This document shows, one piece after another, positions 2,306 through 49,964 of a stretch of DNA of 64,000 nucleotides. A program made the translations under genes and the position numbers. The stretch spans positions 3,840-67,839 of IMG/VR virus record IMGVR_UViG_3300037258_000358. One strand, 5' to 3'. Within the stretch, counting starts at the first letter, position 1; each line of letters opens with the position of its first letter. This DNA comes from a virus. The notes under the pieces were generated by a model that was not told the origin of the DNA, searched no databases, and saw only the letters and a list, made by a program, of their open reading frames with translations.

Positions 2306-2820
2306 CCCTGATTGAGATTTGCGCCGTGGCCGGGGCAGTCGGCGGCGTCGTGTCGCCGACAGCCGTAGTGGTGGGCCTGATGGTCCAAGCGCGGTCTACC
2401 GAGAGGGTTCGGATCGCGGCAGAGGCGAAGCGCCAGACGGCCCTCGAAAAGGCTGACGCCAGCGTCCTGGCCATGGTGGAGGGCCAAACCGCGGCGCTCA
2501 GGGACCTGACGGCCCAGATGGCGCGGTCCAATGACGAGCGAGAGAAGCACGAGGTCGAATGCTCCGGGCGATGGGGCGCGGCCGACGCGAAGATGGAAGT
2601 ATTGGTCGAGCGCGGCCGCGACGTCGTCGGCCTGGCGGAAAAGGTCGGGGCGTTCGGCGCCGACCAGGCCCACAACAAGGCCCTTCTGGAGCGCGGCCAG
2701 GGACGGTTCGACGAAGCGTTCCGCGCCCTGGGCAACCTGACCGAGGGCATAGGCGCGCTGCAGAAGGGGATGACGGCCATCGAGGACCGCCTTAGCACCG
2801 GGCGCCGCACCAAGCCGTAG
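2302..2820 (+). CDS. Membrane-anchored coiled-coil protein (lysis-region type)
   Basis: N-terminal hydrophobic helix followed by coiled coil. Confidence 0.5.
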   Translation: MTLIEICAVAGAVGGVVSPTAVVVGLMVQARSTERVRIAAEAKRQTALEKADASVLAMVEGQTAALRDLTAQMARSNDEREKHEVECSGRWGAADAKMEVLVERGRDVVGLAEKVGAFGADQAHNKALLERGQGRFDEAFRALGNLTEGIGALQKGMTAIEDRLSTGRRTKP

Positions 2821-2835
2821 ACAGGACCATGCGCT

Positions 2836-3411
2836 TCAGGTCGGCGGCAACGTCGAGAGCCACGCCTGAACCCGCGCCTTGGCAGTATCGGCGTATTTCT
2901 TTCGACCCGAGGCCGGGACCGCCATGTACTGGCTGACCGCGTTCTGCATGGAGACGGCAGAGCGCCCCGTTGCACGGCTCGCCATGGCGGCCGCAGCCGA
3001 CAGGGAGATACCGAAGAAGGCGCCGATCGCCACAAGCAGGATCTGCGCCGCCTGGATCCCGACGATATAGGCTGTCGGAATGCCGGGGATGTTCTCGACC
3101 AGCGAGAAGGCCTCGTTCAGCAAGCTGAGAAGCGCCTGGGCCGTGGAAGCAGCGCCCGTGGCCGATGTCAGCGCCGCGAAGGCTTGTTCCGCCGTCTCCA
3201 CGTCACTGAGGACAGTATTCAGCTGCGTGGTGAGCGCCGGATCGAGCGTCTCGACGAGCGGTACGACCTTGGCCAACGCCGCGACGGCCGTGGCCGCATA
3301 GCCCTGGACATCGGCCAGGGCAGTTCCAGTCGAGCATCCGCCCAGCAGAAAGAGCGGCGCTGTGGCGAGCGCACCTAGCAACGCGGAGCGCCGGCTGGTG
3401 GGAAATCTCAT
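2836..3411 (-). CDS. Predicted lipoprotein with twin-arginine-like signal
   Basis: MRFPTSRRSALLGALATAPLFLLGG-C: SRRxxL motif plus lipobox; RBS GAAAGGA. Confidence 0.65.
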   Translation of the reverse strand: MRFPTSRRSALLGALATAPLFLLGGCSTGTALADVQGYAATAVAALAKVVPLVETLDPALTTQLNTVLSDVETAEQAFAALTSATGAASTAQALLSLLNEAFSLVENIPGIPTAYIVGIQAAQILLVAIGAFFGISLSAAAAMASRATGRSAVSMQNAVSQYMAVPASGRKKYADTAKARVQAWLSTLPPT

Positions 3412-3444
3412 GGGAAATCCTTTCAGAAAGGGAGGGGGAAGTGG

Positions 3445-3930: not shown

Positions 3931-4956
3931 TTATTTCGGCGCGACGTCGAGATAAGCCTTTATGAAGGCGCACGCTGTTTCCGCGTCGAGAGCATCGCCA
4001 TAACCGCGCAGTCGTCCCATACGCGCGGGAGACGCATCAACCAGCGGGCATGCGCCGGGTTCAACCGGGCGCCAACGGCCGTCTCGGCAGAAGAGCCAAT
4101 CAGCGCCGGGCCCTGGTGGATCACTTGGTTGTTGAGCTGTTCGCCCTTCTTCTCCCCGCCACGGGACGCGAATGATTCCAAATTGGGCGTCCGATAGTCG
4201 CGTTCGCTCGGCGTCGCCCAACCGGTCAGACGCGACGTGTCCTCCAGATAGAGCACTACCGTGTTGTGGCCGTCTGATTTCCGGTACAGCCGCACCTTCT
4301 CCAGTGTGTCCGGAGACCTCGAACGGTTCTGCGTATCTGGCGTCGGCCAGCCCGCGAAGGCCACGACCTGCTCGAGCGTCACGGTCGCCTTGGAACCGTC
4401 TGGTCGTTGGCCAGACGCCGTCGTTCCAGGGGGCACGCTCTGCCCACCGCTCGGCGTCGTTGGCGTCGGCCACCCAGAGGAATCGTTGTCGGATGTGGTA
4501 AGCGCGGAAGCCCGCAGCCGATAGATCAGCCGCCCCGAAGGCGTAGCCGATGCCTTCCAGGTCAGCCGATACAAGATCGATCCAGGCATCTGCGTTCGCA
4601 ACCTGTTCACCAAAGATGTTGCCAGGCCTGCGCTCGCCGATGAGCCGAAACCATGGCGGCCAAAGGTGGCGCGGGTCTTCGAAGCCTTGGCGCTTGCCGG
4701 CGGCGCTGAATGGCTGGCAGGGGCATGAACCGGTCCAAACAGGTCGGTCGTCTGGCCATCCGGCGCGTCGGAGGGCGTAACTCCAGACTCCGATGCCAGC
4801 GAAGAAGTGGCATTGGACAAAGCCATCGAGGTCGCTGGGCTGGACTTCCTGGATCGGTCTTTCATCGACGACCCCCGGAGCGATGGCGCCGGCTTCGATC
4901 AGGCTGCGGAGCCACGCCGCTTTCTTGCGGTCGTTCTCGTTGTACCACGCAGTCAA
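3931..4956 (-). CDS. C5-cytosine DNA methyltransferase, alpha polypeptide
   Basis: FFAGIG (motif I), GSCPCQPFS (IV), EQV (VI), HIRQR (VIII), RLRGYGDAL (X); TTG start at 4956 overlaps the upstream stop. Confidence 0.85.
   Translation of the reverse strand: MTAWYNENDRKKAAWLRSLIEAGAIAPGVVDERPIQEVQPSDLDGFVQCHFFAGIGVWSYALRRAGWPDDRPVWTGSCPCQPFSAAGKRQGFEDPRHLWPPWFRLIGERRPGNIFGEQVANADAWIDLVSADLEGIGYAFGAADLSAAGFRAYHIRQRFLWVADANDAERWAERAPWNDGVWPTTRRFQGDRDARAGRGLRGLADARYAEPFEVSGHTGEGAAVPEIRRPQHGSALSGGHVASDRLGDAERTRLSDAQFGIIRVPWRGEEGRTAQQPSDPPGPGADWLFCRDGRWRPVEPGACPLVDASPARMGRLRGYGDALDAETACAFIKAYLDVAPK
3960..4865 (-). CDS. Alternative-frame beta polypeptide of the C5 methyltransferase (true start may be internal)
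   Basis: 301-codon ORF nested in another frame; WPTP/WATP repeats; C-terminal RLNPAHARWLMRLPRVWD resembles motif IX, which the alpha frame lacks. Confidence 0.7.
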   Translation of the reverse strand: MKDRSRKSSPATSMALSNATSSLASESGVTPSDAPDGQTTDLFGPVHAPASHSAPPASAKASKTRATFGRHGFGSSASAGLATSLVNRLRTQMPGSILYRLTWKASATPSGRLIYRLRASALTTSDNDSSGWPTPTTPSGGQSVPPGTTASGQRPDGSKATVTLEQVVAFAGWPTPDTQNRSRSPDTLEKVRLYRKSDGHNTVVLYLEDTSRLTGWATPSERDYRTPNLESFASRGGEKKGEQLNNQVIHQGPALIGSSAETAVGARLNPAHARWLMRLPRVWDDCAVMAMLSTRKQRAPS

Positions 4957-5234
4957 TTCTTGACGTGCGCGTCGGCTTCGGCCTGCGCTTCCGCCGCCTC
5001 GGCCGAGCGCAGGATCGCATCGACCACGCCGCCGACGGATGGATAGAGGATGGCCAGGATCGGCCGGGGCGCCCGTACGCAGGTCATATGTTTGATGTGA
5101 TAGCGGATGACGGCATGGAGCGCGCCCGAACAGATGACCTCTGGCGAGATGCCACGGCTCTCGGCGTGGGCGAGCATCAGGGAGACAGCCTGGTCGGTCG
5201 CGGCCGCCTCGGCTTGGTACTGGAGATCGCTCAT
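4953..5234 (-). CDS. Hypothetical protein
   Basis: 93-aa ORF translationally coupled on both sides. Confidence 0.55.
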   Translation of the reverse strand: MSDLQYQAEAAATDQAVSLMLAHAESRGISPEVICSGALHAVIRYHIKHMTCVRAPRPILAILYPSVGGVVDAILRSAEAAEAQAEADAHVKN

Positions 5235-6757
5235 TCGTCCGGGGCCGATGCGTTGCGGATGTCGACCACAGCATCGGCGATAGGATCCTCCAACTCAAGA
5301 TACGTCCGGGTCCGCGCGAGGGCGCGGAAGGATTTGCGCACGTCGGCCGGCGCGGCCTGTTGCGCCCAGGCCATGAAATACATCGGGTCGTGCTCCGGGT
5401 TGACCTTCATCTTCTCGACGGCCGCGCGGTTGTAGGCGAGCGAGAGCGTGCGCTTCTGGTCCCCTGCATCGAAGGCCTGGAATTCGCCGCTCTCGATCAG
5501 GTCGTAGATTTGCCGGGCGATCGTCGGCCAGTCGGGCGCCCGCATGATGATCTCGCGCCACTCGACTACGGGCGCTTCCGCCCCATTGCCGCTTTTCGTC
5601 TCTTCCTGGATAGCCTCGGCCTCAGGCGTGCGGTGCGCCTCTCCCTCGTCCGCCGGACGGTCGCCAGGGAAGGCGTCCTCTTCATTCGCCTGTGGCTTGT
5701 CGATCTCGCCAGCGCTCGTAGCCTCGGACTGCGCTGGCTGGCCAGAGGCTTCCTCCGCTGAAACCTCCGACGCATCGGTCGCAGAGTCCGGCGTAGCGCT
5801 GTCCGCCTCCGCAGTGTGGGCAGCGCTCTCGGAAGGGTCCGGCTGAGGATCTTCGACCTCCGCCTCGACCTCATCGCCGACCACGGACTGGCGCAGTTCC
5901 TCGACGCGGAGACGCGCGGTCTCTTCGACCCACTGGCGATTTTCGTCGTCGAGGGCCTCGATCCATTTCTCGTCGCCCCGGAGAATATCGGCGATGTCCG
6001 CGCCGGTCTCCGCGTGACGCAGGGCCGTGACGAGGGCCGTGACAGCTTGGACCAGTTCAGGCCCCTCTTCAGCGACTCCCGCTGCTTTGGCGCTCTCCGC
6101 CTCCGCCTTCGGCGCATTCAGGCGAGCCGCGAGGCCCGATGTCTGGCGCCCGTTATCGCGAGCCGGAAGGACTTCGAAATCCCTGACCTCTTCGGCGATG
6201 GACGTTCCGCGCAGGACATCGGCCGCCCCGTCCCGACAGGCGAATCCCCGGGCGCGCATCTGGAGCATCCGCCTCTTCGCGGTCTGCCAGGGGCCGTCCT
6301 TGGACCAGAGTTTCGCCTCCTTGGCCTGAAACACCGAGAACGTCCGCTCGATCTCTTCGCCGTCTGGGCGCGTCACCCGGCAATGAGCGGTCATGTCGTC
6401 CGGGTAGGCGTCGCTCTCGTTGGCGAGCCACTCCTTGATCTTGAAGCGGTGTGCATAGAGCAACGCCGGGATGGCGTCCCCCCAGATCGTCAGCTGGTTG
6501 TTCACCATGTAGAAAGCGCGGATCGCCTGCATGGGCGGGAAGCCGAGTTCGGCGCCGGTGAGGATCGCCACCGTGCATTTCTCGGCGGTGTTCAGCGTCT
6601 TGGGCGCCAGATCGGCCCGGGCGATGGCGGTCCCCAGCCGGAAGGCGTCCTCGAGCGACCGCGGAAGGATGGCGGCCAGTTCGGCCCCGGCCATGAGCGG
6701 CTGCGCGGGCCGAACGGCGACTTCCTTGCGGTCTTCAGTTGCGGGTTGGTTGGTCAT
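5231..6757 (-). CDS. recT: RecT-family ssDNA annealing protein with long acidic linker and C-terminal domain
   Basis: AILTGAELGFPPMQA, GPWQTAKRRMLQMRARGFACRDGAADVLRG; follows the exonuclease gene. Confidence 0.8.
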   Translation of the reverse strand: MTNQPATEDRKEVAVRPAQPLMAGAELAAILPRSLEDAFRLGTAIARADLAPKTLNTAEKCTVAILTGAELGFPPMQAIRAFYMVNNQLTIWGDAIPALLYAHRFKIKEWLANESDAYPDDMTAHCRVTRPDGEEIERTFSVFQAKEAKLWSKDGPWQTAKRRMLQMRARGFACRDGAADVLRGTSIAEEVRDFEVLPARDNGRQTSGLAARLNAPKAEAESAKAAGVAEEGPELVQAVTALVTALRHAETGADIADILRGDEKWIEALDDENRQWVEETARLRVEELRQSVVGDEVEAEVEDPQPDPSESAAHTAEADSATPDSATDASEVSAEEASGQPAQSEATSAGEIDKPQANEEDAFPGDRPADEGEAHRTPEAEAIQEETKSGNGAEAPVVEWREIIMRAPDWPTIARQIYDLIESGEFQAFDAGDQKRTLSLAYNRAAVEKMKVNPEHDPMYFMAWAQQAAPADVRKSFRALARTRTYLELEDPIADAVVDIRNASAPDE

Positions 6758-47229: not shown

Positions 47230-47787
47230 ATGGCTCTGGGTTTCTTGAAGGAAGCGGGACCGGCAGTGGGCGACGTTCACGTCAACACGGCCGACTTCCT
47301 CGCGCCCGACAAGGGCAAGCGCACACCAGAGGACATCGAGAACGAGCGCAAGGCGAATCTGCGCACGGGACCCGAAGGCGCCGTTTCGAAGGAAGGCTTC
47401 ATCGCCAAGGTCGACACCTCGCATGGCCTGGTGTTTGGGTTCGGGATCGTCTGCCGCAAGGGCGGCCAGCCGTACTTCGACCTGCAGAAGGACCATATCC
47501 CCGAGGATTCCATGATCGAGGCCGCGGCCGATTTCATGAAGAACAGCCGCCAGGCGCATGAGATGCACGCCGGGTCGAAGCAGGGCGATGTCGTATTCGC
47601 GATGCCGATCACCGACGACATCCGCAAGTTCATCGCCGACAGCGACGAGACCGGCCTCCTGATCGGAATGGCCCCGTCCGCCGAAGTCTTGGCCAAGTTC
47701 AAGAGCGGCGAGTACGCCGGCTTTTCGATCGGCGGCGAGCGCATCGACGATGAGGACGGCTCTGCAGGAGTCCGACGTGCGGCATGA
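47230..47787 (+). CDS. XkdF-like prohead serine protease
   Basis: LVFGF, DLQKD, AAADFM, EMH, FKSGEYAGFSIGG. Confidence 0.8.
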   Translation: MALGFLKEAGPAVGDVHVNTADFLAPDKGKRTPEDIENERKANLRTGPEGAVSKEGFIAKVDTSHGLVFGFGIVCRKGGQPYFDLQKDHIPEDSMIEAAADFMKNSRQAHEMHAGSKQGDVVFAMPITDDIRKFIADSDETGLLIGMAPSAEVLAKFKSGEYAGFSIGGERIDDEDGSAGVRRAA

Positions 47788-49964
47788 GCGACAAGCCCAC
47801 GGTCATGCGCCGCCTAAAGATCGCGGAGATTTCGGCCGTGGACCGGCCGGCGCAGGCTCACGCCAGGGTCGCCCTGATGAAAAGGCACGATCCGATGATC
47901 GATGAATTCATCAAGCGCGAGTTCAGCGACGACAAGCGCAAGGAACTCGCCGAGTCGGGAGCGGCATTGCCGGACGGTTGCCTTTCCGGCGACACGCTTG
48001 TTGAAACGCTCGATGGCCAGCGGCCGATCTCTGGTCTTCTTGGTCGGCAGCGCCTGCTCACCGAGCAAGGTTGGAAATCAGCCGAGGTCCAGTATTTCGG
48101 AGAGCAGCGACTCGCTGAGGTGCGTCTTTCTCGCGGGTATGTGCGGCGCTCCATTCTTGCGACGCTTGGCCACCGTTGGCACACTCGGCGCGGGATCGTG
48201 CCCACGGCCGGCCTCCGACCTGGAGACCTGCTTCCTCAAGTATCCCGCGACCGCTTCGCTGTAGCTGTCGAACCATCCGAGATGGCTGTTGCAGGGGCCA
48301 CAGAGCAGTCCGCGAACCTCGCCAGTCAGATGGTCATGGTCGACATGGAGCGCGGTCCACGTGCGCCCTGTCCGCGTGTTTGCACGGTTCAGCGTGGGCG
48401 TCCGGCAGCAAATGGCGCATCGGCCGCCCTGCGCGATAAACATCGCCTCGAATTCGGCGTTTCCGATGCCGTATTTTCGGCGCAAGGCACCTTCTCGGCG
48501 ACGAAGCCAGCGAAGATCGCCGAAGTCGACCTTGGCGGAAGATTCCTCGGCATGAGTTCGCTTGCAGGTCTTACATTCGGTGCGCCTCCGGCCGCTTTCC
48601 CGAATGTAGAACTCGCTCGGTGGCTGCCTGACTCCGCAGAGTCGGCAGTTCCGCCATGCCGGATCGTCCGGAAGCGTTCCAGCCAGGATGCGTCTCGCAT
48701 CTGTGGAACCATGTCGCCACAGGCGTTGGTAATGGGGGCTGCAGAGTCCGACTGCCTTGACGATTCCTACGCAGCCCTCGATTTTGCAGGTGTTGACGGT
48801 GGATGGTCTGTCGAAGAGGTCCGGATGACCGGCCTCATCGAGTCCGTCTACTGTGGCGTCGTCCCTGATTTGCATAGGTTCGCTCTAGCCGATGGCCTGA
48901 TCACCGGCAACAGTTTCCCGATCGAAAACGAAGAGGATCTGCACAACGCGATCCGCGCCGTCGGCCGGGCCAAGGACGAAGCCAAGGCCAAGGCGCACAT
49001 CATCGCGCGAGCCAAATCGATGGGCGCCACGGGCGCTCTTCCCGAAGACTGGAAGGCCAGCAAAGCCGTCCACCTCACTCCCCTGAAAGGAACGACCATG
49101 ACGCCCTCAGAGCTTCGCAAGTCCCTGGGTCTGGCCGACAGCGCCTCCGATACCGAGGTCACCAACGCCCTCATCGTCAAGGCCAACAAGGCCGACGACG
49201 ACGCCGAGAAGGCCAAGGCCAAAGAGGAAGAGGCCGAAAAGCGCGCGAAGAAGGCCGAGGGCCTCGCCAAGATGAGCGACAAGCACCGCGGATTCATGAA
49301 TCACGCGGACGCCAAGATGCCCACGGGCGGCAAGGACGCCTTCGCCGAGATGGAGCCGTCAGAGCGTGACGCGCACATGAAGGCCAACCCGATCGAGGAC
49401 GACGGCGACGCGGACGACGTATCGAAGGCCATCAAGGCCGGGACTGCCTTCGTCGCTGCCGGCGGAATTCTCATCCGCAAGAGCAAGGTCGGGGCGGACG
49501 TGTTCTCCGTGCTGAAGGCGACGACTGAGCAGAACGCAACCCTGGCCGAACAGGTCAAGAAGTCCGACGAGGCAGCCGCGCTCGCCAAGTTTGAAAAACA
49601 GGCGGACGCCGAGTTCGCGCACCTGCCGGGCACAAGCGCCGAGCGCGCCGAACTGCTCAAGGCGATCGACGCCATGCCTGAGGCCGTCAAGAAAGCGACG
49701 CTCGCCAACATGGCGATCCAGGAAAAGCTCGCGAAGTCGGCCTTCACCATGATCGGCCGGGACGCCTCGGACCTCGGTCTCGAAAAGAAGGACGAGGACA
49801 ACGCCGAGGCTGAACTCGACAAGAAGGCCAGGGAGATCGTCGGGAAGTCCGCTGGGACGTCCTACGCCAAGGCCTATGACCAGGTCTGCAAGGACAACCC
49901 GGATCTCTACGCCAAGTACGTGAGCCAAAAGCGCCAGCGCACGAACGGCGCCGACGCGGACTGA
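47784..49964 (+). CDS. Intein-containing head protein/scaffold precursor (726 aa; 415 aa after splicing)
   Basis: EISAVDRPAQ N-terminus; exteins rejoin as ALPDG|SFPIENEEDLHNAIRAVGRAKD; Ala/Lys/Glu-rich scaffold-like C-terminus; lies between protease and capsid genes. Confidence 0.8.
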   Translation: MSDKPTVMRRLKIAEISAVDRPAQAHARVALMKRHDPMIDEFIKREFSDDKRKELAESGAALPDGCLSGDTLVETLDGQRPISGLLGRQRLLTEQGWKSAEVQYFGEQRLAEVRLSRGYVRRSILATLGHRWHTRRGIVPTAGLRPGDLLPQVSRDRFAVAVEPSEMAVAGATEQSANLASQMVMVDMERGPRAPCPRVCTVQRGRPAANGASAALRDKHRLEFGVSDAVFSAQGTFSATKPAKIAEVDLGGRFLGMSSLAGLTFGAPPAAFPNVELARWLPDSAESAVPPCRIVRKRSSQDASRICGTMSPQALVMGAAESDCLDDSYAALDFAGVDGGWSVEEVRMTGLIESVYCGVVPDLHRFALADGLITGNSFPIENEEDLHNAIRAVGRAKDEAKAKAHIIARAKSMGATGALPEDWKASKAVHLTPLKGTTMTPSELRKSLGLADSASDTEVTNALIVKANKADDDAEKAKAKEEEAEKRAKKAEGLAKMSDKHRGFMNHADAKMPTGGKDAFAEMEPSERDAHMKANPIEDDGDADDVSKAIKAGTAFVAAGGILIRKSKVGADVFSVLKATTEQNATLAEQVKKSDEAAALAKFEKQADAEFAHLPGTSAERAELLKAIDAMPEAVKKATLANMAIQEKLAKSAFTMIGRDASDLGLEKKDEDNAEAELDKKAREIVGKSAGTSYAKAYDQVCKDNPDLYAKYVSQKRQRTNGADAD
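48078..48875 (-). CDS. Endonuclease VII-family HNH homing endonuclease, antisense inside the intein
   Basis: CKIEGC..GLCSPHYQR; CRLC..EFY..CKTC; LRRKYGI...QGGRCAIC...LHVDHDHLTGEVRGLLCGPCNSHLG. Confidence 0.88.
   Translation of the reverse strand: MQIRDDATVDGLDEAGHPDLFDRPSTVNTCKIEGCVGIVKAVGLCSPHYQRLWRHGSTDARRILAGTLPDDPAWRNCRLCGVRQPPSEFYIRESGRRRTECKTCKRTHAEESSAKVDFGDLRWLRRREGALRRKYGIGNAEFEAMFIAQGGRCAICCRTPTLNRANTRTGRTWTALHVDHDHLTGEVRGLLCGPCNSHLGWFDSYSEAVAGYLRKQVSRSEAGRGHDPAPSVPTVAKRRKNGAPHIPARKTHLSESLLSEILDLG
48882..48910 (-). promoter_or_regulatory. Candidate antisense promoter for the homing endonuclease (leaderless mRNA)
   Basis: Minus strand TTGCCG (48910-48905), 17-bp spacer, TAGAGC (48887-48882), 6 nt, then ATG 48875. 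Confidence 0.55.

What the first reader, a model, noticed from the sequence alone, without database searches (positions are those of the whole stretch)
47979..48911. Intein whose homing endonuclease is encoded on the opposite strand
Seen: a 933-bp in-frame insertion with all splicing blocks (CLSGDT; TLGH; VYC..HRF; TGN/S) splits the extein motif ALPDG|SFPIEN. The ~190-aa middle, where inteins normally carry an in-frame nuclease, has no LAGLIDADG or HNH motif in the sense frame. The minus strand (48875-48078, wholly inside the intein) encodes an intact-looking Endo VII-type nuclease (CAIC, HVDHDH, VRGLLCGPCN) with two extra Cys/His zinc modules. The two frames are codon-aligned, so the sense frame stays open as long as the nuclease avoids TTA/CTA/TCA codons. 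Known: described mobile inteins carry the nuclease as part of the spliced polypeptide, and T4 Endo VII-like domains serve as homing nucleases (e.g. F-CphI). Inference: a bidirectionally coded selfish element in which splicing (late, sense) and homing (separate antisense transcript) are uncoupled. I know of no description of this architecture but cannot search the literature.
Basis: partly seen in the sequence, partly recalled or inferred. Interest (0 to 1): 0.93.

Follow-up and report, generated by a model that had tools for sequence, protein, structure and literature searches.

The report
Intein with antisense Endo VII gene
A self-splicing protein insert (intein) in a soil phage's head gene carries its DNA-cutting "homing" enzyme as a separate gene on the opposite strand; the layout is real and kept by selection, but this kind of intein is already in print.

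Summary
A 933-bp in-frame insertion (47979-48911) splits the motif ALPDG|SFPIEN; 106 of 119 listed homologues have the motif uninterrupted. Its ends fold as an intein splicing domain (pLDDT 95-98, all top PDB matches inteins), while the ~165-residue middle has no confident fold. The codon-aligned minus-strand ORF 48078-48875 is a clear Endonuclease_7 protein (Pfam E 7.9e-18) with all catalytic residues. Two diverged relatives (L017, L018) share the layout. In the nuclease core pN/pS is 0.39-0.52 in the antisense frame and about 1.5 in the sense frame; in the splicing domains this reverses. The open sense frame is cheap: about 27% by chance at this codon usage. Homing, splicing and antisense transcription are inferred, not shown. 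The novelty claim fails. Antisense LAGLIDADG and VSR-like nucleases and out-of-frame same-strand Endo VII nucleases in inteins are described by Gosselin et al. 2025, who cite Gorbalenya 1998. Only the antisense plus Endo VII combination, this host gene and the setting outside PhagesDB actinobacteriophages look unreported. This scan had already found the layout on other DNA. Homologous inteins at the same site carry Endo VII in the sense +1 frame (L015, L023).

The parts
47784..49964 (+). Host gene: 726-aa precursor of a head-module protein, lying between the head-morphogenesis gene and the scaffold and major-capsid genes; its exact role is not established
   Evidence: ORF. PHROG 24785 (unknown function) E 5.4e-20. 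Neighbours: head morphogenesis E 2.6e-78, head scaffolding E 1.2e-11, major head protein E 4.5e-85. Several homologues are fused to Peptidase_S78 domains.
47784..47978 (+). N-extein (65 aa), ending ...ALPDG
   Evidence: Alignment with intein-free alleles.
47979..48911 (+). Intein, 311 aa in the sense frame (P0001), from C1 to N311
   Evidence: C1, T62, H65 and N311 are invariant in both alignments (11 sequences; 40 sequences). G310 is invariant in 11 and nearly invariant in 40.
47979..48254 (+). N-terminal splicing domain (sense aa 1-92, blocks A and B: CLSGDT, TLGH)
   Evidence: pLDDT 95-98; Hint/intein fold; sense pN/pS 0.57-0.65 against antisense 1.09-1.36.
48255..48785 (+). Sense-frame read-through linker (aa 93-269): the translated 'shadow' of the antisense gene, with no confident fold
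   Evidence: pLDDT 27-51 over residues 100-260. No Pfam family. Over the nuclease core, sense aa identity to relatives is 0.27-0.31 and sense pN/pS about 1.5. AT skew reverses here.
48786..48911 (+). C-terminal splicing domain (sense aa 270-311, blocks F and G: VYCGVVPDLHRF...ITGN)
   Evidence: pLDDT 81-98. For the last 27 codons, sense pN/pS 0.15-0.30 against antisense 1.27-1.79.
48912..49964 (+). C-extein (350 aa plus stop), beginning SFPIEN
48078..48875 (-). Nested nuclease ORF (P0002, 265 aa plus stop), codon-aligned antisense; antisense residue i pairs with sense residue 300-i
   Evidence: It is the only Endo VII-like match in the 67.8-kb phage genome.
48228..48653 (-). Conserved nuclease core (aa 75-216): CxxC...CxxC zinc ribbon plus Endo VII / DHHRN catalytic domain (Pfam match aa 131-214 = 48234-48485)
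   Evidence: Pfam E 7.9e-18. Alignment to T4 Endo VII 1e7d. C153, C156, D179, H180, R188, C192, C195, N196 invariant and H182 nearly invariant in 31 sequences. pLDDT 87-96. Antisense pN/pS 0.39-0.52.
48693..48797 (-). Extra N-terminal Cys/His module (aa 27-61, CKIEGC...CSPHY), present in the window's nuclease but absent from L017 and L018
   Evidence: PHROG 5351 HNH endonuclease E 1.4e-5. pLDDT about 80. Gapped in L017/L018.
48078..48227 (-). C-terminal tail of the nuclease ORF (aa 217-265 plus stop), running over the intein's N-terminal splicing domain; probably read-on with no function of its own
   Evidence: pLDDT 44-65. Antisense identity there is 0.18-0.31 and antisense pN/pS exceeds 1. 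In L018 the nuclease stops 9 codons after the domain, and in L017 after about 30.

Best explanation
This is a composite selfish element. A class-1-type intein sits in a phage head gene, and its usual endonuclease slot is occupied by an independent Endo VII (DHHRN) family homing-endonuclease gene of the free-standing kind. That gene lies on the opposite strand in exact codon register. The host frame reads straight through the gene, giving an unstructured linker of about 165-175 residues between the two halves of the Hint fold. The intein then removes itself, linker included, to give a 415-aa head protein. The nuclease is made from its own message and is inferred to cut intein-less alleles at or near the conserved ...GCN CTN CCN GAY GGN|TCN TTY CCN ATH... 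site during mixed infection, so that repair copies intein and nuclease together. Shown here: the insertion, the Hint fold, invariant splicing residues, nuclease family and catalytic residues, frame-specific purifying selection, recurrence in diverged relatives, and rarity among extein homologues. Inferred: splicing, antisense expression, cleavage specificity and present-day mobility. The arrangement most likely arose when a free-standing nuclease gene entered, or replaced, the nuclease region of a formerly LAGLIDADG-type intein. High GC content makes the codon-aligned antisense phase easy to keep open.
For: Insertion relative to empty alleles. Hint fold: pLDDT 95-98 for residues 1-90 and 81-98 for 271-311; 17 PDB matches at E<=0.001, and all those listed are intein splicing domains such as Ssp DnaB, gp41-1, Msm DnaB and Mtu RecA. 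C1, T62, H65 and N311 are invariant in 11 and in 40 sequences, and the +1 Ser is kept. The family is a true intein family: 633 HMMER hits at E<=0.001; 15 of 40 members hit Pfam Intein_splicing and 24 of 40 carry in-frame LAGLIDADG_3. Nuclease: Pfam E 7.9e-18; DHHRN residues D179, H180, H182, R188, N196 and four zinc cysteines present. Selection in the nuclease core, 135-136 codons, three pairs: differences at antisense positions 1/2/3 are 41/36/88, 47/43/79 and 39/35/79 (chi-square p 3e-7, 1e-3, 9e-6); antisense pN/pS 0.39-0.52 against sense 1.48-1.50; aa identity 0.57-0.62 against 0.27-0.31. The pattern is opposite in both splicing domains. Recurrence: L017 and L018 are antisense (Pfam 5.3e-17, 1.7e-17), L015 and L023 are sense +1 (2.1e-17, 4.6e-20), all at PDG|S[FY]; about ten further 50%-cluster representatives match through the shadow region. 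AT skew reverses over the insertion. The functional parts barely overlap, since the nuclease's low-confidence ends lie over the splicing domains.
Against: There is no direct evidence of expression. No sigma-70-like promoter was found in 47600-49300, and there is no clear Shine-Dalgarno before the only start codon. The gene points against a plus-strand late operon. P0001 itself does not reach any Pfam or NCBIfam intein threshold. The penultimate residue is Gly, not the common His. Structural matches of the nuclease are only middling: no Foldseek hit at E<=0.001, and T4 Endo VII at Z 5.2-5.3. The selection test rests on three DNA sequences, found with a query that required an open sense frame. 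The same-strand pair gives no significant position bias (68/56/80, p 0.12). Sporadic distribution (2 of 119) fits loss as well as gain.
Confidence: 0.8

Rival explanations
1. Passenger or relic. The nuclease gene once invaded the intein but no longer drives homing; the intein is now inherited vertically and the nuclease is on its way to decay.
For: No promoter-like site and a weak start context. The gene is oriented against the late operon. At the same site, P0130 has a short middle and P0134 an Arg/Gly/Ala-rich one, which may be decayed forms. Gosselin et al. expect antisense ORFs to decay fast once mobility is lost (section read).
Against: Antisense pN/pS is 0.39-0.52 across 50-60% identical relatives. 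All catalytic and zinc residues are intact in the 5 of 5 DNA-level examples. The same site is occupied in head proteins of very different length, 393-1281 aa.
Confidence: 0.1
2. The nuclease serves the phage itself rather than the intein, for example as a T4 gp49-like junction resolvase or a packaging-associated HNH enzyme. On this reading the intein is merely a tolerated place to keep the gene.
For: T4 Endo VII is a resolvase (abstract of PMC6083498). P0002 is the only Endo VII-like gene in this genome and lies in the head and packaging module.
Against: Only residues 1-72 of T4 Endo VII align. The zinc ribbon plus Endo VII layout matches many phage records, several annotated as homing endonuclease or endonuclease VII. 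106 of 119 related head genes lack the whole insert. In the 70 loci surveyed, an Endo VII-like match inside an intein occurred only at this one extein site.
Confidence: 0.06
3. Chance or artefact. The minus-strand ORF is an accidental open frame in GC-rich DNA, or the sense frame is not translated through, making this a fractured gene with a split intein.
For: 9 of 25 likely genes in the window have a codon-aligned antisense run of at least 265 codons, so long antisense ORFs are common here. Several other family inteins have long alternative-frame ORFs with no Pfam match.
Against: Pfam E 7.9e-18 and selection in that frame. The sense frame has 0 stops over 726 codons. The same DNA stands in contigs of two soil runs, with one base changed inside the intein.
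Confidence: 0.02

Closest known systems
Non-canonical actinobacteriophage inteins with a homing endonuclease in a separate frame (Gosselin, Arsenault and Gogarten, bioRxiv 10.1101/2025.01.02.630785; abstract, section 15 and passages of sections 3, 8, 12, 14 and 28 read)
   Same: The nuclease is a separate ORF inside the nuclease slot. The intein frame reads through it and gives no recognisable fold. The origin proposed is invasion of an intein by a free-standing nuclease gene. An Endo VII-like nuclease is one of the four types, found in Gordonia phage terminases; my hit H18 (Angelicage, 39.8% identity to P0002 residues 134-247) lies in frame 3 of that terminase gene.
   Different: In the passages I read, Endo VII-like nucleases are reported only on the same strand in frame 3, and antisense ones only as LAGLIDADG or VSR-like. 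Here Endo VII is antisense (window, L017, L018) or in sense frame 2 (L015, L023). The host gene is a head-module protein with the PDG|SFPI motif, and the phages come from metagenomes rather than from PhagesDB, the collection that paper surveyed.
Antisense LAGLIDADG inteins (Synechocystis DnaX; Chloroflexus SpoVR-like), Gorbalenya 1998 and Gogarten 2002, known to me only as cited in the preprint above
   Same: A nuclease ORF on the strand opposite to a contiguous, presumably functional intein.
   Different: Different nuclease family; cellular rather than phage genes. I did not read the original papers.
F-CphI / DHHRN family of homing endonucleases (Fang et al. 2018, PMC6083498; abstract and passages read)
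   Same: The Endo VII catalytic motif D-H-H-R-N, used by a free-standing phage homing endonuclease. P0002 has all five residues.
   Different: F-CphI is free-standing and targets an intron insertion site in psbA; the paper does not mention inteins (0 occurrences of the word).
Fractured genes with split inteins and a free-standing endonuclease gene between the halves (Dassa et al. 2009), known to me only as cited in the preprint
   Same: A free-standing-type nuclease gene lodged between the two intein halves.
   Different: Here the host frame is uninterrupted, so the intein is contiguous and not split.

Membership tests
Intein (Hint superfamily, class-1-type) | In-frame insertion at a conserved extein site that is absent from homologous alleles | tested here: met
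   ALPDG|SFPIE is uninterrupted in P0005, P0006, P0021, P0029 and P0085; 106 of 119 homologues are uninterrupted.
Intein (Hint superfamily, class-1-type) | N-terminal Cys/Ser, block B TxxH, C-terminal Asn, and Cys/Ser/Thr as first C-extein residue | tested here: met
   C1, T62, H65, N311 and S+1. C1, T62, H65 and N311 are invariant in 11 and in 40 sequences. The penultimate residue is Gly (G310), not His. That inteins without this His exist is my recollection, not tested here.
Intein (Hint superfamily, class-1-type) | Hint fold formed by the N- and C-terminal segments | tested here: met
   AlphaFold2 pLDDT 95-98 and 81-98 for the two segments; Foldseek gives 17 matches at E<=0.001, and all those listed are intein splicing domains.
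Intein (Hint superfamily, class-1-type) | Match to curated intein profiles | tested here: inconclusive
   P0001 gets only Hint_2 at E 0.061, below cutoff, and no NCBIfam intein model. However, 15 of 40 aligned family members hit Pfam Intein_splicing, and P0001 finds 633 proteins at E<=0.001, mostly in two stretches at the N and C ends.
Intein (Hint superfamily, class-1-type) | Protein splicing activity | not testable with these tools
   Needs expression of the 726-aa precursor.
Endonuclease VII / DHHRN homing-endonuclease family | Pfam PF02945 above the gathering score | tested here: met
   64.6 bits against a cutoff of 23.6, E 7.9e-18.
Endonuclease VII / DHHRN homing-endonuclease family | Conserved D, H, H, R, N (T4 D40, H41, H43, R54, N62) and four zinc cysteines | tested here: met
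   D179, H180, H182, R188, N196 and C153, C156, C192, C195, from the alignment to 1e7d and invariance in 31 sequences. D40, H43, R54 and the conserved Asn are named in PMC6083498. H41 and the number N62 are my reading of the 1e7d/1e7l alignment and entry title.
Endonuclease VII / DHHRN homing-endonuclease family | Beta-beta-alpha-metal fold | tested here: inconclusive
   Foldseek gives no hit at E<=0.001, but T4 Endo VII has probability 0.93-0.96. VIA-align: T4 Endo VII Z 5.2-5.3 (rmsd 3.3-3.8, 61-66 aligned) and EcoKMcrA Z 6.8. These Z values are middling.
Endonuclease VII / DHHRN homing-endonuclease family | Site-specific cleavage of the element-free allele | not testable with these tools
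   Needs purified protein and a substrate carrying the uninterrupted junction.
Inteins with a nuclease in a separate frame (Gosselin et al. 2025) | Nuclease ORF lies between the splicing blocks in a frame other than the intein's, and the intein frame stays open | tested here: met
   Sense frame 0 stops; the nuclease core corresponds to sense residues 84-225.
Inteins with a nuclease in a separate frame (Gosselin et al. 2025) | The in-frame translation of the nuclease region forms no recognisable structure, while the other-frame product matches a nuclease | tested here: met
   pLDDT 27-51 for sense residues 100-260; Pfam and PDB matches for the antisense product.
Split intein / fractured gene (Dassa et al. 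2009) | Extein gene broken into two separate ORFs flanking the nuclease gene | tested here: not met
   A single 726-codon ORF without a stop.

The most novel reading that the evidence does not exclude
At one conserved site (PDG|S[F/Y]PI) of phage head proteins, a single intein lineage has repeatedly swapped or re-acquired its nuclease cassette. The family's usual in-frame LAGLIDADG domain is replaced by free-standing Endo VII genes that sit either antisense in codon register or in the sense +1 frame. The nuclease phylogeny is decoupled from that of the splicing domain. These would be living intermediates of the 'splicing first, nuclease later' origin of bifunctional inteins. The antisense form would add a regulatory twist, because convergent late transcription would limit nuclease expression to early infection.
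Probability: 0.3. Interest if true: 0.6.

Novelty: new variant of a known kind. Interest (0 to 1): 0.4.

Why it matters
It adds a fourth nuclease-by-orientation combination (antisense Endo VII/DHHRN) to the short list of inteins whose nuclease is a separate overlapping gene. It also extends that list beyond PhagesDB actinobacteriophages and to a new host gene. More useful is the natural comparison set: homologous inteins at one extein site with the same nuclease family in two different layouts, inside a family whose other members are mostly canonical LAGLIDADG inteins. This allows a direct test of how nucleases enter and leave inteins. It also shows, with numbers, that high GC content makes the codon-aligned antisense phase nearly free of stops, which explains where such elements should be looked for. 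For annotation, gene callers miss these nucleases: P0002 is absent from a 5.8-billion-protein collection.

Tried and rejected
Whether those nucleases are nested or free-standing stays open. My codon-compatibility test worked on the positive control (P0002 against P0003, 100%; unrelated control 31%). It found no exact partner among my representatives; the best was P0276 against P0128 at 83%.

Direct searches with P0001 alone gave only a near-identical fragment (L001/L016). A PDB sequence search with P0001 gave only chance hits at E about 2.

Long alternative-frame ORFs in other family inteins (L058, L081, L074, L067, L026, L072) have no Pfam match at E<=0.01. I do not count them as nested genes.

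Expression: no RNA holder is listed for the stretch. The promoter scan found none, and one weak terminator-like site lies on the minus strand at 47901-47888. None of this bears on whether the gene is expressed.

Laying two soil DNA runs showed the stretch intact in contigs of both. X1 may be the source of the window. X2 differs at 47801 and at 48427; the latter is the middle base of a codon in both frames (Gly150 to Ala in the nuclease, at a position that varies among relatives). One change is too little for any inference.

The same-strand pair L015/L023 gave no significant codon-position bias (p 0.12).

I considered a single inversion as the link between the sense +1 and antisense forms. The splice-domain and nuclease identities are incongruent, which favours separate acquisitions, but five sequences cannot settle it.

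PMC6669764 turned up in a literature search and is irrelevant.

Not in print, as far as searched: antisense Endo VII in an intein. Searches were.

Rows dropped: of 47 full-length family loci, 39 went into alignment A3. L021, L022 and L047 repeat L020. L028 repeats L027, L042 repeats L041, L059 repeats L058 and L082 repeats L044, judged by identical length, ends and flanks. L076 has 4 stops in the sense frame.
Full report
WHAT IS THERE. The window is part of a complete 67,839-bp virus record with direct terminal repeats. Its contigs are found in soil metagenome runs. Its late structural module, about 38.7-63.9 kb, runs on the plus strand by a rough composition-based gene call. In that module a head-morphogenesis gene comes first (PHROG E 2.6e-78). 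A scaffold-like gene (1.2e-11) and the major head protein gene (4.5e-85) come after. Between them lies a 726-codon ORF, 47784-49964. Its product aligns with many phage head-module proteins of about 400-530 aa. Some of these are fused to HK97-type prohead protease domains.

THE INSERTION. Intein-free relatives read ...ALPDG|SFPIE... without interruption (P0005, P0006, P0021, P0029, P0085). The window has 311 extra residues at exactly that point, from Cys (47979) to Asn (48911), followed by Ser. Of the 119 listed homologues, 106 have the uninterrupted motif, 2 (P0004, P0016) have an intein there, and 11 fit neither pattern.

IS IT AN INTEIN? Curated profiles barely see it: Hint_2 at E 0.061, and no NCBIfam intein model. 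An exhaustive HMMER search with the 311 residues nevertheless finds 633 proteins at E<=0.001 and 95 at E<=1e-10. Most match in two stretches, at the N and C ends. I took 39 of the 47 full-length related loci from viral and bacterial contigs. In the 40-row alignment made of these plus P0001, 24 rows carry an in-frame LAGLIDADG_3 domain and 15 hit Pfam Intein_splicing. C1, T62, H65 and N311 are invariant in both alignments, and G310 is invariant in 11 and nearly invariant in 40. AlphaFold2 on that alignment gives pLDDT 95-98 for residues 1-90 and 81-98 for 271-311. For residues 100-260 it gives only 27-51. Foldseek places the confident part among intein splicing domains, with 17 matches at E<=0.001 (Ssp DnaB mini-intein 1.1e-5, gp41-1, Msm DnaB, Mtu RecA). 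The sense frame therefore encodes a Hint domain whose two halves are joined by a long stretch with no confident fold. The penultimate residue is Gly rather than the common His.

THE MINUS-STRAND GENE. ORF 48078-48875(-) is codon-aligned with the sense frame. It matches Pfam Endonuclease_7 at E 7.9e-18 and PHROG endonuclease VII at 1.6e-28. It aligns to T4 Endo VII residues 11-66 and keeps the HxDHDH...R...CxxCN core. In 31 relatives C153, C156, D179, H180, R188, C192, C195 and N196 are invariant, and H182 is nearly so. These include the D-H-H-R-N residues after which Fang et al. named the DHHRN homing-endonuclease family of F-CphI (PMC6083498, abstract and passages). The predicted structure is confident for residues about 71-225 and poor for 1-26 and 226-254. 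Structural matches are weak but go to beta-beta-alpha-metal nucleases: T4 Endo VII at Foldseek probability 0.93-0.96 and VIA Z 5.2-5.3, and EcoKMcrA at Z 6.8. It is the only such gene in this phage. It is not in the 5.8-billion-protein collection, as expected for a nested ORF that gene callers skip.

WHICH FRAME IS SELECTED WHERE. Two diverged relatives have the same codon-aligned antisense layout. They are L017 (1281-codon host ORF) and L018 (1042 codons), with nucleases 56% and 51% identical to the window's. In register, antisense position 3 is sense position 1. Over the nuclease core (135-136 codons) the three pairs differ at antisense positions 1/2/3 by 41/36/88, 47/43/79 and 39/35/79 (chi-square p 3e-7, 1e-3, 9e-6). 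Amino-acid identity is 0.57-0.62 antisense and 0.27-0.31 sense. pN/pS is 0.39-0.52 antisense and 1.48-1.50 sense. In the N-terminal splicing domain (81-82 codons) sense pN/pS is 0.57-0.65 and antisense 1.09-1.36. In the last 27 codons sense is 0.15-0.30 and antisense 1.27-1.79. AT skew and GC by codon position agree with this split. Each segment thus has one master frame. The selected parts overlap by only a few codons. The long C-terminal tail of the window's nuclease ORF is unconserved read-on over the intein's N domain. In L018 the nuclease stops 9 codons after the domain.

HOW SPECIAL IS THE OPEN SENSE FRAME? Not very. With this phage's codon usage, TTA, CTA and TCA make up 0.6%, 2.0% and 4.4% of their amino acids' codons. 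A 265-codon gene then avoids all three with probability 0.27, or 0.40 for the first 216 residues. Also, 9 of 25 likely genes in the window have a codon-aligned antisense run of at least 265 codons. A filter at the moment of insertion is enough, and no continuing 'avoidance' needs to be invoked.

AN UNEXPECTED COMPANION. At the same extein site, homologous inteins in L015 (= P0016) and L023 carry an Endo VII gene on the same strand, one base out of frame (Pfam 2.1e-17 and 4.6e-20). L023's splicing domains are as close to L018 and the window (N 0.54-0.60, C 0.58-0.77) as the antisense group's are to each other. Its nuclease is only 0.33-0.41 identical to theirs, against 0.57-0.61 within the antisense group. 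This hints at separate acquisitions or cassette exchange rather than one inherited arrangement. Five sequences do not prove it, and the same-strand pair shows no significant position bias (p 0.12).

WHAT IS KNOWN. Gosselin, Arsenault and Gogarten (bioRxiv 10.1101/2025.01.02.630785; abstract, section 15 and passages read) report that 63 of 784 actinobacteriophage inteins have non-canonical nucleases. The types are in-frame HNH, antisense LAGLIDADG (credited to Gorbalenya 1998 and Gogarten 2002), antisense VSR-like, and an Endo VII-like nuclease in frame 3 on the same strand. They propose invasion of inteins by free-standing nuclease genes. My hit H18 in the Gordonia phage Angelicage terminase is one of their cases, and I confirm it is in frame 3. 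In what I could read, an antisense Endo VII nuclease is not described, and five literature searches found no other source. Earlier notes of this scan report the same layout in other genomes and reach the same view.

MECHANISM AND VERDICT. Best reading (0.8): this is a contiguous intein with a nested, independently coded, selected Endo VII/DHHRN homing-endonuclease gene. The host frame reads through it and the linker is discarded with the intein. The nuclease is inferred to cut empty alleles in mixed infections. Splicing, antisense expression and cleavage are not shown. No promoter-like site or clear ribosome-binding site was found, and no RNA data exist. Rivals are a decaying passenger (0.1), a nuclease serving the phage itself (0.06), and chance or a split gene (0.02). 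The finding is real, well supported and a tidy example, but it is a new variant of a described kind.

Noticed in passing
L015 4415-5482 (intein), 4755-5474 (+); L023 2501-3364 (intein), 2745-3314 (+): Homologous inteins at the same PDG|S[FY] site carry an Endo VII gene on the same strand in the +1 frame (frame 2), not the frame 3 reported for Gordonia phage terminases. Splice-domain and nuclease similarities are incongruent with the antisense group.
   Followed up: partly
L069 1623-2111 (+) and intein 2501-2923; L019 4049-4540 (+) and intein 2501-3439; L062 105-581 (+): An Endo VII-like gene lies outside but near a family intein: about 400 nt upstream of a 141-aa mini-intein in L069, and about 600 nt downstream of a 313-aa intein in L019. 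These may be free-standing nucleases acting with or beside inteins.
   Followed up: no
L058 / L059 2503-3135 (-): A 211-codon antisense open frame (not codon-aligned) lies inside a 311-aa family intein at only 47% GC, where such a run is not expected by chance. It has no Pfam match at E<=0.01.
   Followed up: partly
P0130 and P0134 (proteins): Inteins at the same site have a short middle (P0130) or an Arg/Gly/Ala-rich middle (P0134) unlike the Endo VII shadow. They may be decayed forms or carry a gene in yet another frame. No DNA was available.
   Followed up: no
L076 1992-2886: A family intein in an Actinomycetota MAG has 4 stops in the sense frame, and its LAGLIDADG_3 match (E 1.5e-6) is in the +1 frame. 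This is either a frameshifted, decaying intein or an assembly error.
   Followed up: partly
window 47230-47787 (+): The 185-aa ORF just upstream of the host gene, overlapping its start by 4 bases, matches only the C-terminal third of PHROG 1530, annotated DNA methyltransferase (E 3.3e-20). That is an odd annotation for a gene inside a head module.
   Followed up: no
window 48693-48797 (-): The window's nuclease has an extra N-terminal Cys/His module (CKIEGC...CSPHY; PHROG HNH endonuclease E 1.4e-5) that L017 and L018 lack, so the nested gene itself varies in domain content.
   Followed up: partly
loci L017-L083: The same intein family occupies many other extein sites, for example ...YH|CFGC...HQxQN|CLLLRA and ...N|CWFVDV. 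It occurs in both phage contigs and bacterial MAGs (Sphingomonas, Novosphingobium, Streptomyces, Actinomadura and others).
   Followed up: no
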